This document shows positions 20,373 to 58,975 of a stretch of DNA of 64,000 bases, in pieces (positions within the stretch are counted from its first letter, which is position 1; each line of letters starts with the position of its first letter). Position numbers and translations under genes: made by a program. The stretch comes from a bacterium (GTDB lineage Bacteria; Patescibacteriota; Minisyncoccia; Phycocordibacterales; JBBTRF01). The notes beneath the pieces are model-generated. The model worked only from the letters and a program-made list of their open reading frames with translations, made no database searches and had not been told where the DNA came from. The stretch covers positions 171,086 through 235,085 of the forward strand of contig JBAXTI010000001.1 of the NCBI GenBank assembly GCA_037130265.1, read 5' to 3'.

Positions 20373-21257
20373 ATGCAAAAGATGCGCGCTTTTCGAGGCG
20401 GCATTGTAGCGGCAATACTCTTCTTGCCGCTTTTTGCTTTGGCATACAAGAGCCCGGGTCAGCCGAATGGCTTTGTGAATGATTTTGCGAAGATACTCAC
20501 GGCCAATCAAGTGCTCGAATTGAACAAGGACTTGGCAGCATTTTCGTTGCAAGGTGAACAGAATGAAATCTCTGTGGTGACGGTGCCGACGCTCGGTGGC
20601 GATGATGTCGAAAGCTACTCTGCGAATCTGTTCAAAGAGTGGGGGATCGGCAAGGCTGAGAAGGATAACGGAGTTCTTCTTTTGATCGCGGTGGAGGATC
20701 GCAAGATGCGCATCGAAGTTGGATATGGTGCGGAGGCTTTACTTACCGATGCGCAAAGTGGAGCGATCGTTCGCAATATTTTGACACCCGCTTTTCGTTC
20801 TGGAGACTTCTATGGAGGTATTAACAAGGCCGTGCAGGAAATCGCCCGCGCGCTGAGTGGGGATGCGTCATCTGCTGTGCCGGAAGAGTCCCCGCGTTTT
20901 GCATTTTCACTGGAAAATATTCTTGGTTTCGGAGTATTTGTTGCTGTTTTTCTGGCAAGTATTCTCGGTGCCTCAAAATCTTGGTGGCTCGGCGGCGTGC
21001 TCGGTGCCATTGTCGGAGGAGTGATCACGTTTTTCGTCGGCTTCTTTTATTTCGGGTTGATCTCTATCGCAGTACTTGTGCCGCTCGGCCTCCTCTTTGA
21101 TTTCCTGGTTTCCCGCTCATATCAAAAGTCCATGTTGGCCACTGGCCTGCCTCCAGTGTGGCTCGGCGGTGGACGAGGTGGTTCTGGCGGGTCCGGCGGC
21201 TTCGGAGGATTTGGTGGTGGCGGATCGGGAGGTGGTGGGTCGAGTGGGAGTTGGTAG
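20373..21257 (+). CDS. TPM-domain protein (YgcG-like) with Gly-rich C-terminal tail
   Basis: GFVNDFAKILT ... LLLIAVEDRKMRIEVGYG TPM/YgcG pattern. C-terminal TM helices and GGSGG repeats. Classic partner of LemA. Confidence 0.7.
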   Translation: MQKMRAFRGGIVAAILFLPLFALAYKSPGQPNGFVNDFAKILTANQVLELNKDLAAFSLQGEQNEISVVTVPTLGGDDVESYSANLFKEWGIGKAEKDNGVLLLIAVEDRKMRIEVGYGAEALLTDAQSGAIVRNILTPAFRSGDFYGGINKAVQEIARALSGDASSAVPEESPRFAFSLENILGFGVFVAVFLASILGASKSWWLGGVLGAIVGGVITFFVGFFYFGLISIAVLVPLGLLFDFLVSRSYQKSMLATGLPPVWLGGGRGGSGGSGGFGGFGGGGSGGGGSSGSW

Positions 21258-21405
21258 CTGGGAATTCGAGGGAAAATGTTTGGATGCGGTAATTTCTCGC
21301 TAGAAATTTCCTAGTCCTCGACGACTACTCGTCTGCGGATATCCAAATATTTTTCCTCGAATTCCTTGTTCTGTGGTACTATCTTTTTGATAAGTAAATA
21401 AGATT

Positions 21406-22168: not shown

Positions 22169-22664
22169 TGTGTTTTGTCTTATTTAATAAAAACCTATAC
22201 TTTTTCTCAATTTAATCTCGCCCGAATTCCCCGCAACAAAAAGAGGAGCAAATGGAAAATTCCTCCCCCAACCCCTCCTTTTCCATTTGGGACTTCCGAA
22301 CTCAAAAACAAATGAGCCGAAGTTTTGGCGAATCCTCTTCTTACAGAAGCTGTACACCTTTCACATTTTTGAGTACAAAATGCTCAAGGTCTTGCGAAAG
22401 TGTCCCACACTTTCTCACCCCAAAAAATAGTTTTGCCAAAACTTCGTCCGCATTGTTCCGTCACTTGCCCGAATACTTGGAGGGCAGAACCCCGAAAGAA
22501 AAACACCCTTTCCTTTTTCAAAAGAAATTTCACCCCTGCCAAATCAGAAATGCAAGGAGTGTTTTTCTTTCGGGGTTGCCGAGGCTTTGCGAGGCAGTGG
22601 CGGGACGATTCATTCATCACTGTGATTTTGCTCGAAATACATTCGAACTTTGTCCAGAACACAC

Positions 22665-31389: not shown

Positions 31390-31443
31390 TCCTCCAGAAG
31401 TAGAAATAAAAAGACACAGAAAAAATGTTGGTACATTTTTTCC

Positions 31444-31482
31444 TCCTCTCCGCGCCGTCGCGCTCCGAGAGGTCTTTTTATT
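31444..31482 (+). terminator. intrinsic terminator after nrdJ
   Basis: CCTCTC-cgcgccgtcgcgct-CCGAGAGG hairpin followed by TCTTTTTATTT. Confidence 0.5.
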
Positions 31483-31604
31483 TCGTCTTCTTCCGGTAAC
31501 AGTCGCGCCCCGCAGTTCCTCCGAAATGCTGTTTTGTATTTCCTACATATTTCGTTTGTCGGCAACCTTCATTTTGAAGGCCACATTTATTGTGAGAAAT
31601 ATTT

Positions 31605-31719
31605 GGACCCCCATGACAAAGACTGAGAGGGGACTCTCGCAGGCCGACGGGCCGAGATCTGAGTCGAAATCCTAGCAAGGATTTACGACGTGCCCCGATC
31701 AGTCTTTTTTATGGGGGTC
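31605..31719 (+). other. candidate structured RNA/element A (21-bp closing stem + conserved 72-nt interior)
   Basis: GGACCCCCATGACAAAGACTGA pairs with TCAGTCTTTTTTATGGGGGTC. Interior shares GAGGnACT...GGCCGACGGGCCGAG...TTTACGnCGTG with element B. Confidence 0.45.
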
Positions 31720-31756: not shown

Positions 31757-32182
31757 CACGTCCTTGCATTGAATGACTGCGCTTTTCGCAAGAAAAGTGA
31801 GGAAAGTCCGAACACTCGCCGGCTCCGTAAGGCGCCGGCAGCAAGGTAGCAGGTAACGCCTGTCCGATCTGTCGACTTTCGCAAAGGGATTCGTTCTTTT
31901 GAGAAGGTACGACAGCGAGAGGTGCGAACAGAGACGCCGGGCTTCGAAAGGGGCTTGGGACGTGAGCCGCAAGGCTTTCGTCAGTCCTCGCTGAAAGGCG
32001 AGGGGTGCAACGGCAAAATCCTTACCCGAGTGCAAGGCCGTACCATTCGGAGGCAGCAATGTTTCCGAGTAGGGGTGCCGCTTGAGCCGGGGAGCGATCC
32101 TTGGCCTAGATAAATGGTCATTCAGTCGGCGAGGCGCAAGCCGAGCCGGCGGACAGAATTCGGCTTATAGGTGCAGGACATA
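31757..32182 (+). ncRNA. rnpB: RNase P RNA (bacterial type)
   Basis: GAGGAAAGTCCG (P4 5' strand) at about 31797 and ACAGAATTCGGCTTAT (P4 3' strand) at about 32153. P1 pairing GTCCTTGCA/TGCAGGAC. Ends are approximate. Confidence 0.7.
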
Positions 32183-32186
32183 TGGA

Positions 32187-38877: not shown

Positions 38878-40797
38878 ATGGCCACCCCTCTCCAGCGGAT
38901 CCGCAATTTCAGTATTATCGCGCACATCGACCACGGTAAGTCGACGTTGGCTGATCGCATGCTCGAAATCACCCACACCATCGAGGCTCGCAAGATGCGC
39001 GACCAGGTACTCGATAGTATGGAGCTCGAAAAGGAGCGTGGCATCACGATCAAAATGCAGCCGGTCCGCATGGAGTACACCTACCAGGCACCAAAAGGAG
39101 CCGGCGGTACTCTGGATGCGCATATTATTGGGGAAGTGGAAACGCCGGCGGATACCAAGCCGGAAACCTACATTTTGAACCTTATCGATACCCCCGGCCA
39201 CGTGGACTTCTATTACGAGGTATCCCGCGCCCTAAAGGCCGTGGAAGGCTCAATTTTGCTCGTAGATGCCACTCAGGGGGTGCAGGCCCAGACATTGACC
39301 ACCCTCGGTATGGCGCGCGAATCTGGGCTCAAAATCATCCCTGTGGTGAGCAAGGTGGATTCACCATTGGCACGTGTTCCGGAGGTGAAAACTGAGCTCG
39401 CCAAGCTCCTAGGTTGCCACGAAAACGAAGTGCTCGAATGTTCCGGTCGCACTGGAGAGGGTGTCGAAAACCTGCTTCAGGAAGTGATCAGGCGCGTACC
39501 ACCACCGAAGGAAGAATTTCCAGCCGGCAAGATGGCGGATGGTAGCGGGCAGGTTGGGAAGGAGAGTTTTCGTGCGCTCATTTTTGATTTTCAATATTCA
39601 ACACACCGCGGTGTTATCGTGTACGTTCGTGTAACCGACGGTTCGATCTCGAAGAATAGCCAGCTGCTCTTCAATGCGGCCGACCAGAAATTCTTCGCGC
39701 TCGAGGTGGGCGTGTTTCAGCCGGGCGAGCTTGAGAAAGAGTCTATCGGTGCTGGAGAGATCGGCTACATCGTGACCGGCATCAAGCAGCCAGGTATCGC
39801 TTCGGTGGGAGATACAATCACACTCCAAAAGCACCCGTTGCCAGCACTCGCGGGATACATGTCGCCAAAGCCGGTGGTGTGGGCTTCGATCTATCCGGAA
39901 AGCCAGGACGAATTCGTCACTTTGCGCCAGGGCCTTGAGCGTCTCCGACTTTCCGACTCCTCATATACGTTCGAAGAAGAGGCGTCGGGCACGTTGGGGC
40001 GTGGTTTTCGTTGCGGTTTCCTTGGCATGTTGCACCTGGAGATCATCACCGAACGTCTGCGCCGAGAATTCCAGCTTCAGCTCGTGGTGACGACGCCAAG
40101 TATTACCTACGAAGTAACCGACAAGCAGGGCATGACCAAGATGTACTACTCGCCATCGCTTTTTCCCGACTACGGCTTCATCGAAAAAATCCGCGAGCCA
40201 TGGGTGACGATGAATCTCATCAGTCCGTCTGAATATGTTGGTCCAGTGATGCAGCTTTTGTATGATCATGAGGCGAATGTTTTGGCAACACACTCTTTTG
40301 GTGACAACCGAAACTCCGTGGATGTGGAAATGCCGCTGCGCGAGCTAATGCGCAACTTTTTTGATGAGGTGAAGAGTGTGTCTTCGGGCTTTGCATCGAT
40401 GTCGTACACGATTGGAGAATTGCGCGATGCTGATGTGGCACGTCTCGACCTTTTGGTGGCGGGGGAGATTGTTCCGGCGTTCACTCGCGTGGTGGCGAAG
40501 CGCCGCGTGGAGATCGAGGCGGAAAAAGCGGTGGAAAAGCTCCACGCGGCGCTTCCTCGACAGCAATTTGCGACCAAAATTCAGGGCCAGGCACTTGGCC
40601 GCATCATTTCTTCAAAAACTATCTCCGCTTTCCGAAAGGATGTGACAGGACATTTGTATGGTGGTGACGTGAGCCGAAAGAACAAGCTCCTCGACCAACA
40701 GAAAGAAGGCAAGAAACGCATGAAGGAACGTGGCGAGGGAAGCGGCGTGACTATTCCGCAGGATGTGTTTATTAAAATGATGAAGACGGGGGATTAG
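38878..40797 (+). CDS. lepA: translation elongation factor 4 (LepA)
   Basis: IRNFSIIAHIDHGKSTLADR G1 motif, DTPGHVDF. LepA length. Start at second ATG. Confidence 0.85.
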   Translation: MATPLQRIRNFSIIAHIDHGKSTLADRMLEITHTIEARKMRDQVLDSMELEKERGITIKMQPVRMEYTYQAPKGAGGTLDAHIIGEVETPADTKPETYILNLIDTPGHVDFYYEVSRALKAVEGSILLVDATQGVQAQTLTTLGMARESGLKIIPVVSKVDSPLARVPEVKTELAKLLGCHENEVLECSGRTGEGVENLLQEVIRRVPPPKEEFPAGKMADGSGQVGKESFRALIFDFQYSTHRGVIVYVRVTDGSISKNSQLLFNAADQKFFALEVGVFQPGELEKESIGAGEIGYIVTGIKQPGIASVGDTITLQKHPLPALAGYMSPKPVVWASIYPESQDEFVTLRQGLERLRLSDSSYTFEEEASGTLGRGFRCGFLGMLHLEIITERLRREFQLQLVVTTPSITYEVTDKQGMTKMYYSPSLFPDYGFIEKIREPWVTMNLISPSEYVGPVMQLLYDHEANVLATHSFGDNRNSVDVEMPLRELMRNFFDEVKSVSSGFASMSYTIGELRDADVARLDLLVAGEIVPAFTRVVAKRRVEIEAEKAVEKLHAALPRQQFATKIQGQALGRIISSKTISAFRKDVTGHLYGGDVSRKNKLLDQQKEGKKRMKERGEGSGVTIPQDVFIKMMKTGD

Positions 40798-41771: not shown

Positions 41772-41797
41772 AAACGCCCCGAAAGGGGCTTTGTTTG
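41772..41797 (+). terminator. intrinsic terminator after tRNA-Gly
   Basis: GCCCC-GAAA-GGGGC followed by TTTGTTTGT. Confidence 0.5.
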
Positions 41798-41973
41798 TGC
41801 GGGTAAGTAAGTGCCTTGAGGCACTTACGTCTGAGAATCGAAAGGCTTTTCCTTATCGAATGAGTGAAGCGAAATGAGATGGAAAAGCACCTGGCTACGT
41901 AGTAGCCGATTCTCAGTTGCCTTCACCGTTACAAAAGCGGTATACTTACCCTCACCAACTAACCACCACCAAA

Positions 41974-44415: not shown

Positions 44416-44432
44416 CGAAGTGTCTAAAAAGC

Positions 44433-44464
44433 AAAAAGCGCGACCCTCAGGTCGCGCTTTTTGC
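44433..44464. terminator. bidirectional intrinsic terminator
   Basis: AAAAAGCGCGACC-ctca-GGTCGCGCTTTTT between tRNA-Phe (+) and hsp20 (-). Confidence 0.55.
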
Positions 44465-44472
44465 TTTTGTTT

Positions 44473-49873: not shown

Positions 49874-51256
49874 ATGTTGAAAAACCACTCTCCATGGATC
49901 CATCAGCTCAAACGTACCCGACCAGCGGTGCCGTTGAGTGGGGATGTCGAGACTGATGTGGTGGTCGTGGGTGGTGGAATTGCCGGAATCTCCACGGCGT
50001 ATTTTCTCCTCAAGGAAACGAACAAGCGTGTGCTCCTCCTCGAAGCCGACAAGATTGCTCATGGTGCCAGCGGTCACAATGCCGGACAAATCACTTCATA
50101 TTTCGAGCGGCCAATCCACGATATCGCAAAAGAGTTCGGCCTCTCGATGGCGATCGCGGGACAGCGGGCCGTGGAGTCGGCTTGGGCGTTGATCGACCAA
50201 ATGATGGCGGATGCGGGCCTAAAAACACCCATCTATCGCTTCACTGGCTACGCTGGCTGCACCGGCCTAGATGACCTTCTGACCGTGTTTAAGAACAACG
50301 CATGTCGGCTAAAGGGCGGTCTGCCAATTGAATCAATTATGGTGGCTCAAGAATTCGACCGACTCAAGGAGATTCCGAAGGAGTATCGAGATCTGTATAT
50401 TGTCGCGCCTCAGTCGGACATTTTGGCTCTGCTCGAGACGAACAATCCCGACTATATCGCATCTTTCTCATACCAAAAGGGCTGTACGAACAGTGCGCTC
50501 TTGTGTGAGGAGTTGCTTGCATATCTCGCCAACACGTTCAAGGATCGCTTTTCGTTTTTCGAACAGAGTCCGGTGGAAACGGTGATTTTGCGTGATGCTG
50601 GCGGCGTGGTGAAGGTGGGGGATTACACGATCTTGTGCGAGCGGATCGTGCTCTGCACTAATGGCTTCACACATTTCACCATCCAAAACTTGGCCGGTGC
50701 CGAAGTAGACACTTCTTTTCATCACTCAGTGCACGGACGCATCGGCTACATGGCCGGCTATGTCGAACCGCTCGACAGTCCGCCCACGGCGATCAGCTAT
50801 TTCATGAAGGAGAACGATATTCCCGGCGATCCGACTGGCGACGCCTATTTCTATCTCACGCGCCGGCCGCATGAACATGAAGAAAAGAAAGATGTGCCAC
50901 ACAATTTGATCTGCACCGGTGGTCCGGAGAAAGTGTTGCCGAACATGGCGATCTATTCACGCGAGGACGAGCTATCGGAGGAATATCGCGAGAAGATCGA
51001 CATGTTTTTGCGACAGAATTATCGAAAGTATCCCGGCGAACAAACCGAATACGCTTTTTCATGGCACGGCCTAATGGGGTATACGCCAAATGGTATCCGT
51101 CGCGTCGGTACTGAGCCCTGCAACCCAGTCTTGCTCTACAATCTCGGCTGCAACGGCGTCGGTATTTTACCTTCTATCTTCGGCGGCAAGCGCATCGCGC
51201 AGATTGTTCGTGGTGACAAGTTGGAACCGTCGATTTTTGATCCGGGGAGGAAGTAG
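49874..51256 (+). CDS. FAD-dependent oxidoreductase (DAO family)
   Basis: VVVVGGGIAGISTAYFL dinucleotide-binding motif. 460 aa. Confidence 0.6.
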   Translation: MLKNHSPWIHQLKRTRPAVPLSGDVETDVVVVGGGIAGISTAYFLLKETNKRVLLLEADKIAHGASGHNAGQITSYFERPIHDIAKEFGLSMAIAGQRAVESAWALIDQMMADAGLKTPIYRFTGYAGCTGLDDLLTVFKNNACRLKGGLPIESIMVAQEFDRLKEIPKEYRDLYIVAPQSDILALLETNNPDYIASFSYQKGCTNSALLCEELLAYLANTFKDRFSFFEQSPVETVILRDAGGVVKVGDYTILCERIVLCTNGFTHFTIQNLAGAEVDTSFHHSVHGRIGYMAGYVEPLDSPPTAISYFMKENDIPGDPTGDAYFYLTRRPHEHEEKKDVPHNLICTGGPEKVLPNMAIYSREDELSEEYREKIDMFLRQNYRKYPGEQTEYAFSWHGLMGYTPNGIRRVGTEPCNPVLLYNLGCNGVGILPSIFGGKRIAQIVRGDKLEPSIFDPGRK

Positions 51257-51265
51257 CTTTTTGTT

Positions 51266-51356
51266 TGGCGGAAAGGGAGGGATTCGAACCCTCGTAGAGC
51301 TTTCGCCCTCAGCCGATTTCGAGTCGGAGCCGTTGTGACCGCTTCGGTACCTTTCC
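51266..51356 (-). tRNA. tRNA-Ser (anticodon CGA), long variable arm, CCA encoded
   Basis: Reverse complement: GGAAAGG/CCTTTCC, anticodon loop CTCGAAA, variable arm AGGGC-GAAA-GCTCT, T-arm GAGGG-TTCGAAT-CCCTC. Confidence 0.6.
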
Positions 51357-52349
51357 TTTGTTCTTGTCGGCGAAAAATCGATTGTACCGCTTCGCTATTT
51401 TCTCGTTCGATGACCCAATCTCTCGGAAATACTTTTTTATATCGGGCTCTCTTCTAAGAAACACTGCATATTTAGTTGTCTGCGTTGGATGCAAACCCAA
51501 CCTCTCGAGTGTCTTTTTGAAGAAGTAAACTAGTGGTAGCGATCGGTTCGTAAAATTGAGCGCACAATAAGAATATAGAGTATTTTTGCGCAAATGTCTA
51601 TCTACGTAAAAGCAGCCATCCGTGTCTAGTAAGCCGCGGACACACGCTTTGCTAAATCCAATATTTTGTTCGATCCACTTAGGGACCGCCACCTGCTCTT
51701 TGACCTTATTTCCTGGATACAAACCCATCTTCCCAAGTAGTTTTACAAAGGCGACGCGTGAGATGCGTATCAATATTACTCGCCTGTTATTTTGAGGAGT
51801 CGCCGTCGGCCTCTCGCCGAAAATCTCTTCAAAAAGATCGCATACATATACTGAATATGCCGCATCGTCCTCTTTGTGAAGGGTGATGCTCACCTGTCTC
51901 TCTGTGATACCTCCATCTCCTAGTATGATACCAATCAATTCAGCAAGCTTTTTTGTGTGTTTTGGCTTCTTTATCTTTCTCGCGATAAACGGACCAGTGA
52001 GGACTTTTTTCATGCTCTTTATTGCACGAAGCCCTCCAAGCCTCCTTCCTTCAACTGTTCCAGGGTTTCCGTGTAAACGTATTCGCGCCTTACCTCCAAG
52101 GAGAGCCGCTTTGATCTTTTGTTCTTTTTCGTCAATTTTCTCAGCGCGCCGAGGTGCTTCAACTCCGTATTTTCCGTACACATGATCCAGAAATTTCTCA
52201 GGAATGGACACTTTTCCTCGTCTCCAGTCAAAAAGGTTCCTTCTGGTTACGCCATACTCGTTACTAATTTCTGGCCAGGCCAATCCAGATCTTTCCTGGA
52301 TGTTCCTAAAGAATTCTTCCAAATTTTCTTTGTGAAACCTGAAGCGCAT
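51309..52349 (-). CDS. LAGLIDADG-family homing endonuclease (double-motif) with N-terminal HTH region
   Basis: Two LAGLIDADG-like motifs: LIGIILGDGGIT and VRGLLDTDGCFYV. Last 16 codons overlap the 5' half of tRNA-Ser(CGA). Confidence 0.6.
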   Translation of the reverse strand: MRFRFHKENLEEFFRNIQERSGLAWPEISNEYGVTRRNLFDWRRGKVSIPEKFLDHVYGKYGVEAPRRAEKIDEKEQKIKAALLGGKARIRLHGNPGTVEGRRLGGLRAIKSMKKVLTGPFIARKIKKPKHTKKLAELIGIILGDGGITERQVSITLHKEDDAAYSVYVCDLFEEIFGERPTATPQNNRRVILIRISRVAFVKLLGKMGLYPGNKVKEQVAVPKWIEQNIGFSKACVRGLLDTDGCFYVDRHLRKNTLYSYCALNFTNRSLPLVYFFKKTLERLGLHPTQTTKYAVFLRREPDIKKYFREIGSSNEKIAKRYNRFFADKNKGKVPKRSQRLRLEIG

Positions 52350-57519: not shown

Positions 57520-57653
57520 TGTCCATGGGTATGCACGAACGGCGCGAGGCCAACAGCCTCCGCCGTTTTTAATTACACAAAATGTCTTTCTAAGTCGTTC
57601 GAAATATGTAAGAGACAGCAGAAAACACATTCAGAAGGAACTGCGGAGCGATA

Positions 57654-57759
57654 AAAAATCAAAAGACGTTTTCGAGGAACTGCGGAGGCCGACGGGCCGA
57701 GCCGGAGCAAAATTTCAGTAGAAATTTACGCGTGTCCGAGAAAACGTCTTTTGATTTTT
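57654..57759 (+). other. candidate structured RNA/element B (20-bp perfect closing stem + conserved 62-nt interior)
   Basis: AAAAATCAAAAGACGTTTTC pairs perfectly with GAAAACGTCTTTTGATTTTT. Interior homologous to element A and includes GGCCGACGGGCCGAG. Confidence 0.45.
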
Positions 57760-58975
57760 ACTTCTTCGATCGTCTCAAAAACGCCGGTACCGCACCCCAA
57801 TCATCATCCCCATCATCCGCAATGCTGGTCGCCCCTACCATTGGCTTCTTCTCCTCCGGAGCTTTGCTGTTGTTGATCGCCTCCTTCACAACACTTGCAA
57901 CATCGCGCTGTTCAACCTCCTTCTCTTTTGGCTTGCTGACAGCTGGAGTGCTGCTCATGGTGTTGAAAATCTTGCCCTTTGACTCATCGCCAAACAAGCT
58001 CTTCTTTGGAGTGCCGCCTGGCTCTGGGAAACCGGATGCGATAACAGTGATCTTAATCTCGTTCTTCTTGAGCTTCTCGTCTCGGACAGTACCGAAAATA
58101 ACCTTCGCATTTGGATCAATAGACTCGGTGATGACCTTTGCAGCATCCTGGATCTCGAACATGGTGAGATCGTCGCCGCCAGCGATAGAGAAGAGTACGC
58201 CCTTAGCGCCGTGAATAGAAATATCCAAAAGAGGGGAGTTGATCGCCATCTTTGCCGCTTCCTCTGCGCGCTTCTCGCCACTCGCTGTACCGATACCCAT
58301 GAGGGCTGAGCCGGCGTTATCGAGAATGGCTCGTACATCGGCGAAGTCGACGTTGATGATACCTGGTGTGGTGATCAAATCAGAAATACCTTCTACAGCC
58401 TGCTTGAGAATCTCATCAGACATCGCAAAAGCTTGTCGCGCGGTAGTGTCCTTGCTTGCAATGCTCAAAATACGGTCGTTTGGAATGACGATGAGTGCGT
58501 CGACAGACTTCTTGAGCTCATCGAGACCCTGCTCTGCGTGCTTCATACGCTGCTGACCTTCGAAGAAGAACGGCTTGGTGACCACGCCGATAGTGAGGAC
58601 GCCCATTTCCTTCGCGATCTTTGCTACGACAGGCGCAGCACCAGTACCGGTACCACCACCTTTACCACACGCAATGAAGACCATGTCTGAACCCTTGAGA
58701 GCTTCCTGGATTTCTTCCTTGGTTTCCTCTGCTGCACGCTTGCCGAGCTCTGGGTTCATGCCAGTGCCGAGGCCACGAGTGAGGTTTTTGCCAATGTGAA
58801 TCTTTTTCTTTGCGAGAGAGTTCTGGAGATCCTGGGCGTCAGTGTTTATCGCGATAAATTCAACCCCGCGCACCTTGGAGTTGACCATGTGGTTCACTGC
58901 GTTCTTGCCGGAACCGCCCACACCAATGACTTTGATGCGTGCGAATGCCTCTACTTCTGGGTTAATTTGGGCCAT
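57758..58975 (-). CDS. ftsZ: cell division GTPase FtsZ
   Basis: [17 protein letters not shown] and [13 protein letters not shown] tubulin/FtsZ signatures. Confidence 0.9.

What the first reader, a model, noticed from the sequence alone, without database searches (positions are those of the whole stretch)
31605..31719. Structured element A: 21-bp stem enclosing a conserved core (paralog at 57654)
Two loci show the same build: a roughly 20-bp inverted repeat closing a 60-70-nt interior. The stem sequences are completely different (A: GACCCCCATGACAAAGACTGA; B: AAAAATCAAAAGACGTTTTC). The interiors are homologous: both start GAGG(G/A)ACT, contain the identical 15-mer GGCCGACGGGCCGAG, and end TTTACG(A/C)CGTG. 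Conserved loop plus divergent but still complementary stems is covariation-like evidence for a functional RNA (or DNA hairpin) family, not a MITE, which would conserve the terminal repeats. Element A sits between the nrdJ terminator and rnpB.
Basis: seen in the sequence. Interest (0 to 1): 0.7.

Follow-up and report, generated by a model that had tools for sequence, protein, structure and literature searches.

The report
Mobile three-way-junction hairpin repeat in CPR bacteria
The two look-alike hairpins are real and belong to an undescribed family of about 95-base folded repeat elements, found so far only in the tiny-celled CPR/Patescibacteria bacteria, that behaves like selfish mobile DNA: it sits mostly just after stop codons and occasionally in frame inside a gene.

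Summary
A (31606-31719, +) and B (57654-57759, +) share a conserved core closed by unrelated long stems. There are also two orphan core fragments.

The core is a three-way junction: inner P1; P2 with an invariant purine loop (G-N-A opposite G-A) and a GAC(G) loop; and P3 (AAA-stem, AGCA loop, bulged A). No Rfam family matches.

A pattern scan and covariance models recovered 45 distinct copies. All named hosts are CPR/Patescibacteria: Saccharibacteria, Nomurabacteria and Magasanikbacteria. No true copy turned up in the phage or plasmid collections.

The copies behave as mobile DNA:
- 34 of 45 lie within 40 nt of a stop codon, in either orientation.
- A and D are absent from a relative whose nrdJ is 97% identical.
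- Copies are nested in one another.
- Some copies share whole arms.
- Three genomes carry the element in frame in mnmA as an 84-87 nt insertion, while orthologues have an empty site.

The best reading is a new palindromic mobile repeat, like MITEs and Rickettsia palindromic elements, with a structure-constrained core. A host RNA function is not excluded. The "covariation" is partly a DNA-palindrome effect.

The parts
31606..31719 (+). Copy A, full hairpin. Outer arms 31606-31624 and 31700-31719; inner P1 about 31625-31634 with 31693-31699; P2 apical hairpin GGCC-GACG-GGCC 31642-31653; P3 31663-31689 (GTCG-AAATCCT-AGCA-AGGATTT-A-CGAC).
   Evidence: CM scores 85 bits and 81.3 bits; both models included A. 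A is absent at the syntenic place in L028.
57654..57759 (+). Copy B, full hairpin with 20 bp of perfect outer stem. P2 apical hairpin at 57687-57698. The 3' arm overlaps the stop codon of ftsZ (57758-58975, minus strand).
   Evidence: 78.1 bits; the model included B; ftsZ. Orthologous copies in L035 and L047.
31396..31491 (-). Copy C, read on the minus strand. It starts 7 nt after the nrdJ stop codon. P2 is GCGC-GACG-GCGC, a compensated variant; P3 is AAAAAATGT-ACCA-ACATTTTTT. It has no separate inner P1.
   Evidence: 54.7 bits, E = 1e-13, not in the model; 61.6 bits; that model included C. A diverged copy at the same place and in the same orientation in L028.
21261..21365 (-). Copy D, read on the minus strand, the most diverged. 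P2 is GACGA-GTAG-TCGTC; P3 is AAATTTCT-AGCG-AGAAATT. It lies 4 nt after the stop of the TPM_phosphatase gene (20373-21257) and 40 nt before tRNA-Ser(gga).
   Evidence: 32.1 bits, E = 8e-7, not in the model; 45.4 bits; that model included D. Absent in L028.
57608..57648 (+). Orphan remnant directly upstream of B: an old left arm (GTAAGAGACAG...) followed by the first 13 nt of a core (AGGAACTGCGGAG, 57636-57648). It has no partner arm.
   Evidence: the remnant is homologous to the left arm plus core start of the intact copy in L047. L035 keeps a longer remnant at the same place.
31502..31522 (-). Orphan 5' core fragment (GGAGGAACTGCGGGGCGCGAC on the minus strand), directly upstream of copy C in C's own orientation.
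   Evidence: together with the sequence.

Best explanation
A and B are two of four intact copies in this window of an undescribed family of small, non-autonomous palindromic repeat elements of CPR/Patescibacteria.

The unit is about 92-96 nt. It consists of 13-20 nt inverted arms around a core of about 66 nt. As a single strand the core folds into a three-way junction: inner P1, P2 with a conserved purine internal loop, and an A/U-rich P3.

The element spreads and turns over as DNA. It ends up at places where a long hairpin is tolerated.
- Mostly this is within a few nucleotides of a stop codon, in either orientation. There its long stem (A-rich 5' arm and T-rich 3' arm in many copies) can serve as the gene's terminator-like or RNase III-sensitive hairpin.
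- It also lands at the apex of older copies, and rarely in frame in a surface loop of a protein (mnmA).

The arms outside the unit are copy-specific. They stay perfectly complementary because arms of a DNA palindrome are re-templated on each other by template switching. This also produces much of the apparent covariation.

Shown: the family, its fold, copy number, host range, gene context, presence/absence, nesting and coding insertion.

Inferred: how it moves (no enzyme was identified), the terminator and processing role, and the template-switch maintenance of the arms.
For: 1. Family and fold.
- 45 distinct copies. On the model-fitted alignment, 91.3% of pair cells are standard pairs, against 62.5% in shuffles and 35-53% with slid partners. 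31 of 35 pairs change on both sides.
- The reverse strand scores 12 bits or less.
- No Rfam match even at E up to 10.

2. Host range.
- Every true genome hit whose record names a taxon is a CPR MAG; several copies per genome.
- No true copy in IMG/VR, phage records or plasmids.

3. Context.
- 34 of 45 copies lie within 40 nt of an ORF stop.
- Orientation relative to that gene: 11 same, 20 opposite, 3 with stops on both sides.

4. Turnover.
- In L028 (nrdJ 97% identical) A's place holds a plain short hairpin, while the rnpB promoter block next to it is conserved. D is absent. C's place holds a copy with a different core and P3.
- In L031 (79% identical) nrdJ is followed by a plain terminator.

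5. Nesting. B, C and the L035 copy are each preceded by a 5' fragment of an older core, so the intact hairpin sits where the older copy's P3 would be.

6. The whole unit is copied. L010 and L015, and the two copies in L049, share about 26 nt of arm plus the core.

7. Coding insertion.
- The element lies in frame in mnmA in L020, L036 and L060 (71-78 bits).
- This is a roughly 26-residue insertion relative to E. coli MnmA (2DER) at exactly the element.
- The empty orthologue L061 has 45 nt where the filled genes have 129-132 nt.

8. Constraint on the core. In the orthologous pair L014/L046 the flanks look about 88-90% identical by eye, the roughly 70-nt core is 100% identical, and the arms carry 3 compensated pairs with no mismatch.
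Against: - No transposase, recombinase or reverse transcriptase was found near any copy, and no autonomous parent element was found.
- No target-site duplication could be defined.
- The unpaired nucleotides are kept in every copy, including diverged ones. These are the G-N-A / G-A loop flanked by the near-invariant C-G (44 of 45) and invariant G-C pairs, the GAC(G) and AGCA loops, and the bulged A. B's core is 88% identical to a copy in a Saccharibacteria MAG, yet only 69% identical to A in its own genome. That degree of conservation is unusual for junk DNA and points to a recognised folded form, possibly a host function.
- G-U pairs exceed A-C 50 to 23 (22 to 4 in P2), a strand asymmetry expected of a transcribed RNA.
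- The simple terminator scan does not call these hairpins, because their loops are too long for it. Some arms lack any T-run.
- Copies were collected with a pattern that required the 16-mer, so the apparent conservation of P2 is inflated.
Confidence: 0.6

Rival explanations
1. A host-encoded family of structured RNAs. The three-way-junction core is the functional product or a protein-binding module. It would be transcribed either as a 3' UTR or from its own promoter tail-to-tail with the neighbouring gene, and released or marked by RNase III cleavage of the long perfect stem. It is multi-copy because the cell needs many of them.
For: - Invariant unpaired purine loop, bulged A and loop sequences across 45 copies and several CPR classes.
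- G-U pairs exceed A-C 50 to 23.
- Clear strand specificity of the model.
- Cores more conserved than their flanks in orthologous pairs.
- In the "opposite" orientation the element's 5' side faces a longer intergenic spacer (40 nt up to a few hundred nt in the cases read), which leaves room for a promoter.
- Stems of 20-35 bp are the right size for RNase III (established knowledge).
Against: - Copies come and go between genomes 97% identical in nrdJ.
- Truncated and nested copies.
- An in-frame copy inside mnmA.
- No orientation rule relative to genes.
- No promoter-like site in the spacers scanned.
- The four copies in one genome are only 58-69% identical to each other in the three pairs compared.
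Confidence: 0.2
2. The core is a new small catalytic or RNA-level mobile module. For example, it could be a self-cleaving ribozyme riding on a repeat, as hammerheads do on retrozymes, or an RNA that inserts into hairpin loops and returns to DNA by reverse transcription.
For: - A three-way junction with about a dozen conserved junction and loop nucleotides and freely varying helices is the typical anatomy of small ribozymes (established knowledge).
- It is multi-copy, occurs in both orientations and is associated with a repeat.
- The tandem G-A extension of P2 resembles hammerhead domain 2 (read from the sequence).
Against: - No match to any Rfam ribozyme family.
- The hammerhead core CUGANGA ... 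GAAA is not present.
- No reverse transcriptase was seen nearby.
- Nothing here tests catalysis.
Confidence: 0.07
3. A DNA-level recognition site read as duplex or cruciform, such as a DNA-uptake-type sequence or a binding site for a nucleoid or topology protein. It would be placed in terminators the way neisserial DUS pairs or REP/BIME elements are.
For: - Independence of orientation, placement at gene ends, many copies, and restriction to one bacterial group.
- CPR bacteria depend on DNA uptake (established knowledge, not tested here).
Against: - A duplex-binding site would not need P3 to keep pairing while its sequence changes.
- It would not need an asymmetric unpaired loop and a bulged A to be preserved.
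- The unit is far longer than known uptake sequences.
- The in-frame mnmA copies are hard to explain this way.
Confidence: 0.05

Closest known systems
Rickettsia palindromic elements (RPE)
   Same: Both are palindromic repeats of about 100-150 bp in a reduced-genome bacterial lineage. Both occur between genes and also in frame inside unrelated housekeeping genes, where they add a peptide without breaking the gene (review PMC10969869). Here the element is in frame in mnmA in three genomes.
   Different: The host group is different, and no sequence relationship was tested or is expected. Most copies here sit right after stop codons. The family is defined by a conserved three-way-junction core with arms that differ between copies, and copies nest in one another's hairpins.
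Bacterial MITEs that form RNA hairpins: Correia/nemis, ERIC, BOX/RUP/SPRITE
   Same: All are small, non-autonomous, multi-copy and intergenic, in either orientation. They fold into long hairpins in transcripts. Correia hairpins are cut by RNase III; SPRITE looks like a terminator; pneumococcal repeats insert into one another (PMC10969869). Nesting and gene-end placement are seen here.
   Different: Classical MITEs keep their terminal inverted repeats and vary inside, and they have target-site duplications and a parent IS. Here the ends vary and the middle is conserved, no duplication was found and no parent is known.
REP / BIME / REPIN elements mobilised by RAYT transposases
   Same: Extragenic palindromes at gene 3' ends in both orientations, proposed to stabilise mRNA and terminate transcription. 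Other mobile elements (IS1397, some IS110-family members) insert into REP sequences (my own knowledge).
   Different: REPs are 20-40 nt with a conserved GTAG or CGTC tag at one end (PMC3733652) and their stems have a conserved sequence. No RAYT association was examined here. The GACG/GTAG tetranucleotides here lie in the P2 loop, not at a foot.
TIGR-Tas stem-loop arrays (PMC12045711)
   Same: Variable but consistently palindromic stems enclosing loops with short conserved motifs, reported from phages and parasitic bacteria.
   Different: Those are tandem arrays next to a Tas (Nop-domain) gene, and their loops carry variable spacers. Here the copies are dispersed singly, the interior is the conserved part, and no Tas gene was seen nearby.

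Membership tests
Any Rfam 15 RNA family | Covariance-model match at or near the family's gathering score | tested here: not met
   No hit at gathering scores over the whole window. At E up to 10 around A and B the only hits are to miRNA or snoRNA models, driven by the long stem (13.9 and 27.6 bits, far below their cut-offs).
MITE | Small, non-coding, non-autonomous, multi-copy | tested here: met
   The unit is about 92-96 nt. There are 4 copies in 64 kb and up to 3 in 8 kb in L003.
MITE | Terminal inverted repeats conserved across the family | tested here: not met
   Every copy has inverted arms, but their sequence is shared only by recent duplicates (L010/L015, L049-1/-2, L003-1/-2). It differs between subfamilies.
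MITE | Target-site duplication flanking the insert | tested here: inconclusive
   No direct repeat was visible at the filled versus empty mnmA site or at A's site. However, the compared genomes are too diverged to place the boundaries to the base.
MITE | Insertion polymorphism (filled and empty sites) | tested here: met
   A and D are absent in L028. mnmA is filled in L020, L036 and L060 and empty in L061 and in seven other orthologues.
MITE | A related autonomous IS with matching ends, or a transposase acting in trans | not tested
   No transposase-like gene appears among the genes called around the window copies. A genome-wide or co-occurrence search was not possible with these tools.
Rickettsia palindromic elements | Palindromic repeat inserted in frame in protein-coding genes as well as between genes | tested here: met
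   mnmA ORF L020:512-1714 reads through the element. This is a roughly 26-residue insertion relative to 2DER at exactly the element. A third genome, L060, carries it at the same site.
Rickettsia palindromic elements | Sequence membership in one of the RPE families, in Rickettsia | not tested
   No RPE library is available here. The hosts are CPR bacteria, so this is an analogue, not a member.
REP/REPIN | 20-40 nt palindrome with a GTAG or CGTC tag at one end; RAYT gene in the genome | tested here: not met
   The unit is about 95 nt and branched. The GACG/GTAG tetranucleotide lies in the P2 loop. RAYT presence was not examined.
Intrinsic (rho-independent) terminator | G+C-rich stem with a short loop, followed directly by a T-run, placed after a stop codon | tested here: inconclusive
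   Placement is met: 34 of 45 copies lie within 40 nt of a stop. In many copies the arms are A-rich on the 5' side and T-rich on the 3' side. The consensus scan does not call A, B or C because the "loop" is a 60-nt branched core. Some copies (L004, L040) have no T-run.
Hammerhead ribozyme | Three-way junction with core CUGANGA ... GAAA ... cleavage-site H | tested here: not met
   J1/2 reads A-C-U-n-n-C-G-n-A and J2/3 reads G-A-(n). G5 and A6 are not conserved. There is no Rfam hammerhead hit.
TIGR array | Tandem array of units with two variable spacers flanked by box C/D-like motifs, next to a Tas gene | tested here: not met
   Copies are dispersed singly, their interiors are conserved rather than variable, and no Nop-domain gene is among the neighbours.

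The most novel reading that the evidence does not exclude
The conserved three-way junction is the active part of a new kind of mobile element that homes to the apex of hairpins: terminator stems, its own P3, and palindromic spots in genes. It would be recognised, or even catalytic, in its folded single-stranded form. It would be shared, perhaps exchanged, across CPR classes, while its host-derived arms are continually re-templated.
Probability: 0.2. Interest if true: 0.85.

Novelty: new variant of a known kind. Interest (0 to 1): 0.62.

Why it matters
CPR/Patescibacteria make up a large share of bacterial diversity. They have tiny genomes that are thought to carry little mobile or repetitive DNA, and their non-coding RNA and DNA elements are almost unstudied.

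A multi-copy, structure-constrained repeat shared by Saccharibacteria, Nomurabacteria and Magasanikbacteria would matter in several ways:
- It would mark gene ends.
- It would inflate some proteins.
- It would confound gene and terminator prediction.
- It would give a handle on how reduced genomes tolerate selfish DNA.

The finding is also a caution for RNA discovery. In DNA palindromes, compensated double changes can arise through the mutation process itself, so covariation alone does not prove a selected RNA fold.

If the core proves to be a recognised or catalytic fold that targets hairpin tips, it would define a new transposition logic.

Tried and rejected
- **Rfam**, at gathering scores and at permissive E-values: nothing relevant.
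- **tRNA/tmRNA scan**: only the 8 ordinary tRNAs.
- **A fifth copy in the window.** Full-model scans without filters found only plain hairpins below 20 bits. The 2-mismatch 15-mer match at 1722-1736 lies in ordinary sequence with no hairpin.
- **Phage or plasmid origin.** There are no true copies in IMG/VR (6 chance matches to the 18-mer), in phage records or in plasmids.
- **Chance hits in the genome scan.** The matches in high-G+C Actinobacteria and Alphaproteobacteria (L007, L009, L013, L016) lack the fold. L006 matches only the P2 segment.
- **Promoter in the C-A spacer or upstream of B**: no sigma-70-like site.
- **T-run statistics on the arms.** My script was confounded by spurious pairing of the flanks and I discarded it.
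- **K-turn reading of the P2 loop**: rejected, because the bulge is 1 nt and the G-A pair next to it is C-A in about a quarter of copies (read from the alignment).
- **TIGR-Tas stem-loop arrays**: rejected.
- **Literature searches.** Searches for CPR structured RNAs or repeats and for the sequence itself found no description of this element.
- **Strain comparison with L058**: it is 100% identical to the window, so it was uninformative.

Full report
**The observation**

A (31606-31719) and B (57654-57759) are long hairpins. Their arms are 27 nt (85% complementary) and 25 nt (92% complementary), enclosing 60 and 56 nt. They share the exact 15-mer GGCCGACGGGCCGAG. They fold much better than shuffled controls, with z = -8.5 and -6.5.

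A shared 15-mer alone is not remarkable in 64 kb. The case rests on the common architecture and on independent copies.

**More copies in the window**

The inverted-repeat list shows two more hairpins with interiors of 55-56 nt. Read on the minus strand they have the same build:
- C (31396-31491): CTCTCGGA-GCGC-GACG-GCGC-GGAGAG ... AAAAAATGT-ACCA-ACATTTTTT
- D (21261-21365)...GCA-GACGA-GTAG-TCGTC-GAG ... AAATTTCT-AGCG-AGAAATT

A covariance model that did not contain C or D finds them at 54.7 and 32.1 bits. It finds nothing else above 18 bits, and reverse strands score 12 bits or less. A larger model, whose training alignment included all four window copies, gives 61.6 and 45.4 bits and still finds only four copies.

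It starts 7 nt after the nrdJ stop. rnpB begins 40 nt after A, at 31760-32183, with 86.4 bits, below Rfam's gathering score.

**Who has it**

One scan of GTDB species genomes for AGGCCGACGGGCCGAG-N15-35-TTTAC gave 20 loci. About 15 of them have the full fold. Every one whose record names a taxon is a CPR/Patescibacteria MAG (Saccharibacteria, Nomurabacteria, Magasanikbacteria), and the rest are labelled only "uncultured bacterium" or "bacterium". There are often several hits per genome.

The same scan of JGI metagenomes added 24 loci. In total there are 45 distinct copies. The window's own nrdJ has its closest named relatives in Nomurabacteria, Paceibacteria and Parcubacteria. There are no true copies in IMG/VR, phage records or plasmids. 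No Rfam family matches, and I found no description in the searchable literature.

**Anatomy**

The consensus is a three-way junction.
- **P1** has a copy-specific outer part and a semi-conserved inner part, typically UUUU-GAGGGAC pairing with GUGCCCUC-AAAA.
- **P2** has a variable 4-5 bp base. It then has a near-invariant C-G pair (44 of 45), an unpaired G-N-A opposite G-A, an invariant G-C pair, a 4-5 bp apical stem that covaries (GGCC, GCGC, GCUC/GAGC, GACGA/UCGUC) and a GAC(G) loop.
- **P3** has a 3-4 bp base, a bulged A, AAA/UUU pairs, 3-4 freely varying pairs, and a C-AGCA-G cap.

On the 45-sequence model-fitted alignment, 91.3% of pair cells are standard pairs. Shuffles give 62.5% and slid partners give 35-53%. 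31 of 35 pairs change on both sides. G-U pairs outnumber A-C 50 to 23, and 22 to 4 in P2.

**Where it sits**

34 of 45 copies lie within 40 nt of an ORF stop codon. B overlaps the ftsZ stop. C and D lie 7 and 4 nt after stops.

Orientation relative to the adjacent gene is 11 same, 20 opposite and 3 with stops on both sides. The count of 20 includes A, which is scored against a spurious ORF overlapping rnpB. In many copies the outer arms are A-rich on the 5' side and T-rich on the 3' side, like the plain 19-bp bidirectional terminator after tRNA-Phe (44427-44468). Some copies have no T-run, and one (L031) lies between divergent genes.

**Evidence that it turns over as DNA**

1. *Presence and absence between relatives.* L028 and L029 come from a relative whose nrdJ is 97% identical, with the same gene order.
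   - At A's place they have only a short plain hairpin, while the adjacent rnpB promoter block (GCATTTACTTC ... ATGGTA) is conserved.
   - D is absent.
   - C's place holds a copy in the same orientation, but with a different inner P1 and P3 and only partly homologous arms.
   - In the 79% relative L031, nrdJ is followed by an ordinary terminator.
2. *B compared with its orthologue in L047.* The right flank is identical over about 60 nt and the core is the same. However, P3 differs by two fully compensated pairs (AAATTTC/GAAATTT against AAAAGTC/GACTTTT) and the arms are replaced. The window keeps an orphan old left arm plus a 13-nt duplicate of the core start at 57608-57648.
3. *Nesting.* L035 keeps a longer remnant at that place. 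C is likewise preceded by a 5' core fragment at 31502-31522. In each case the intact hairpin sits where the older copy's A/U-rich P3 would be, so the copies are nested.
4. *Shared arms.* L010 and L015, and the two copies in L049, share about 26 nt of arm plus the core. Their outermost few pairs are nevertheless new and complementary. The L049 pair differs by a wholesale swap of the six apical P3 pairs.
5. *Coding insertion.* In L020, L036 and L060 the element lies in frame inside mnmA.
   - Against E. coli MnmA (2DER) the only extra segment in that part of the protein is about 26 residues long and lies exactly at the element.
   - Seven close orthologues lack it.
   - The empty gene L061 has 45 nt where the filled genes have 129-132 nt, a difference of 84-87 nt, which is a multiple of three.

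**What this means for the covariation argument**

Blocks of compensated changes separate copies whose flanks or arms are nearly identical. In the orthologous pair L014/L046 the arms show three compensated pairs and no mismatch.

Independent point mutations followed by selection are an unlikely source. Templated correction between the arms of a DNA palindrome is a known mutational process (template switching in quasi-palindromes; my own knowledge). It would produce exactly this pattern. So pairing conservation here is not by itself evidence for a selected RNA.

**What still argues for a recognised folded form**

- The asymmetric purine loop in P2, the bulged A and the loop sequences are non-complementary features that arm-to-arm correction should erase. 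Yet every copy keeps them.
- Cores are more conserved than their flanks: 100% over about 70 nt against roughly 88-90% (my estimate by eye from the alignment) in L014/L046, and about 97% against about 85% for coding flanks in L020/L036 (also by eye).
- B's core is 88% identical to a copy in a Saccharibacteria MAG, and A's core is 84% identical to a copy in another. A and B are only 69% identical to each other. So subfamilies are either very old and constrained or exchanged between classes. The pattern used to collect copies biases this comparison.
- G-U pairs outnumber A-C.

**Verdict**

The best-supported reading is a new family of small palindromic mobile repeats, analogous to Rickettsia palindromic elements and to hairpin-forming MITEs (PMC10969869).
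- The conserved part is a structured core rather than the termini.
- The family settles mainly at gene ends, where its long stem can stand in for a terminator or an RNase III site.
- How it moves is unknown.

A host RNA role for the core, or a catalytic or homing function, is not excluded and would be the interesting outcome.

Noticed in passing
L020:890-983 (also L036:1251-1342, and aa ~295 of P0123, P0125, P0128, P0129, P0150): A second, unrelated palindromic in-frame element in CPR mnmA genes. It has 20-bp perfect arms (AGATGGAAACCTGAAGAATT / AATTCTTCAGGTTTCCATCT) and encodes ..PAFALGDKRTGDRHGS.. It occurs at about aa 130 in most orthologues, and in some it occurs again at the same aa ~295 hotspot that the three-way-junction element uses. 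Other orthologues carry still other inserts there.
   Followed up: partly
window 31760-32183 (+): RNase P RNA (class A) scores only 86.4 bits, below Rfam's gathering score of 100, with several large insertions relative to the model. It is therefore missed by a standard Rfam annotation. A promoter-like block, GCATTTACTTC-N-ATGGTAYTYTAAA, is conserved with L028.
   Followed up: partly
window 22287-22577, 40497-40555, 41785-41967, 44427-44468: Intergenic DNA holds several other long hairpins without the core. Examples are 30-nt arms at 22488-22577, overlapping pairs at 22287-22457, 25-nt arms after tRNA-Gly, and a perfect 19-bp bidirectional terminator after tRNA-Phe. They may be empty targets or other repeat families.
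   Followed up: no
window 51223-51238 and 51373-51388: A 16-nt inverted repeat (81% complementary) brackets tRNA-Ser(cga) at 51266-51356, like a processing stem around the tRNA.
   Followed up: no
window 31396-31719; L003:5986-6289: In both places two copies face away from each other (minus, then plus) with a spacer of about 115-118 nt, between gene ends. I do not know whether this paired arrangement means anything.
   Followed up: partly
L028:5065-5600 versus window 21258-21405: Between the TPM_phosphatase gene and tRNA-Ser, the 97% relative carries a small two-gene module (an unnamed ORF plus DUF2283) where the window has copy D. The first roughly 16 nt after the stop codon are homologous to D's left arm.
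   Followed up: partly
L057 (window contig just beyond the right end of the window): GyrA carries an intein, and a free-standing LAGLIDADG-type ORF lies nearby. These are other selfish elements in the same small genome.
   Followed up: no
L031:7561-7680 (-): One copy, with a 27-bp perfect stem, lies between divergently transcribed secG and lemA rather than at a gene end. So the gene-end rule has exceptions.
   Followed up: no
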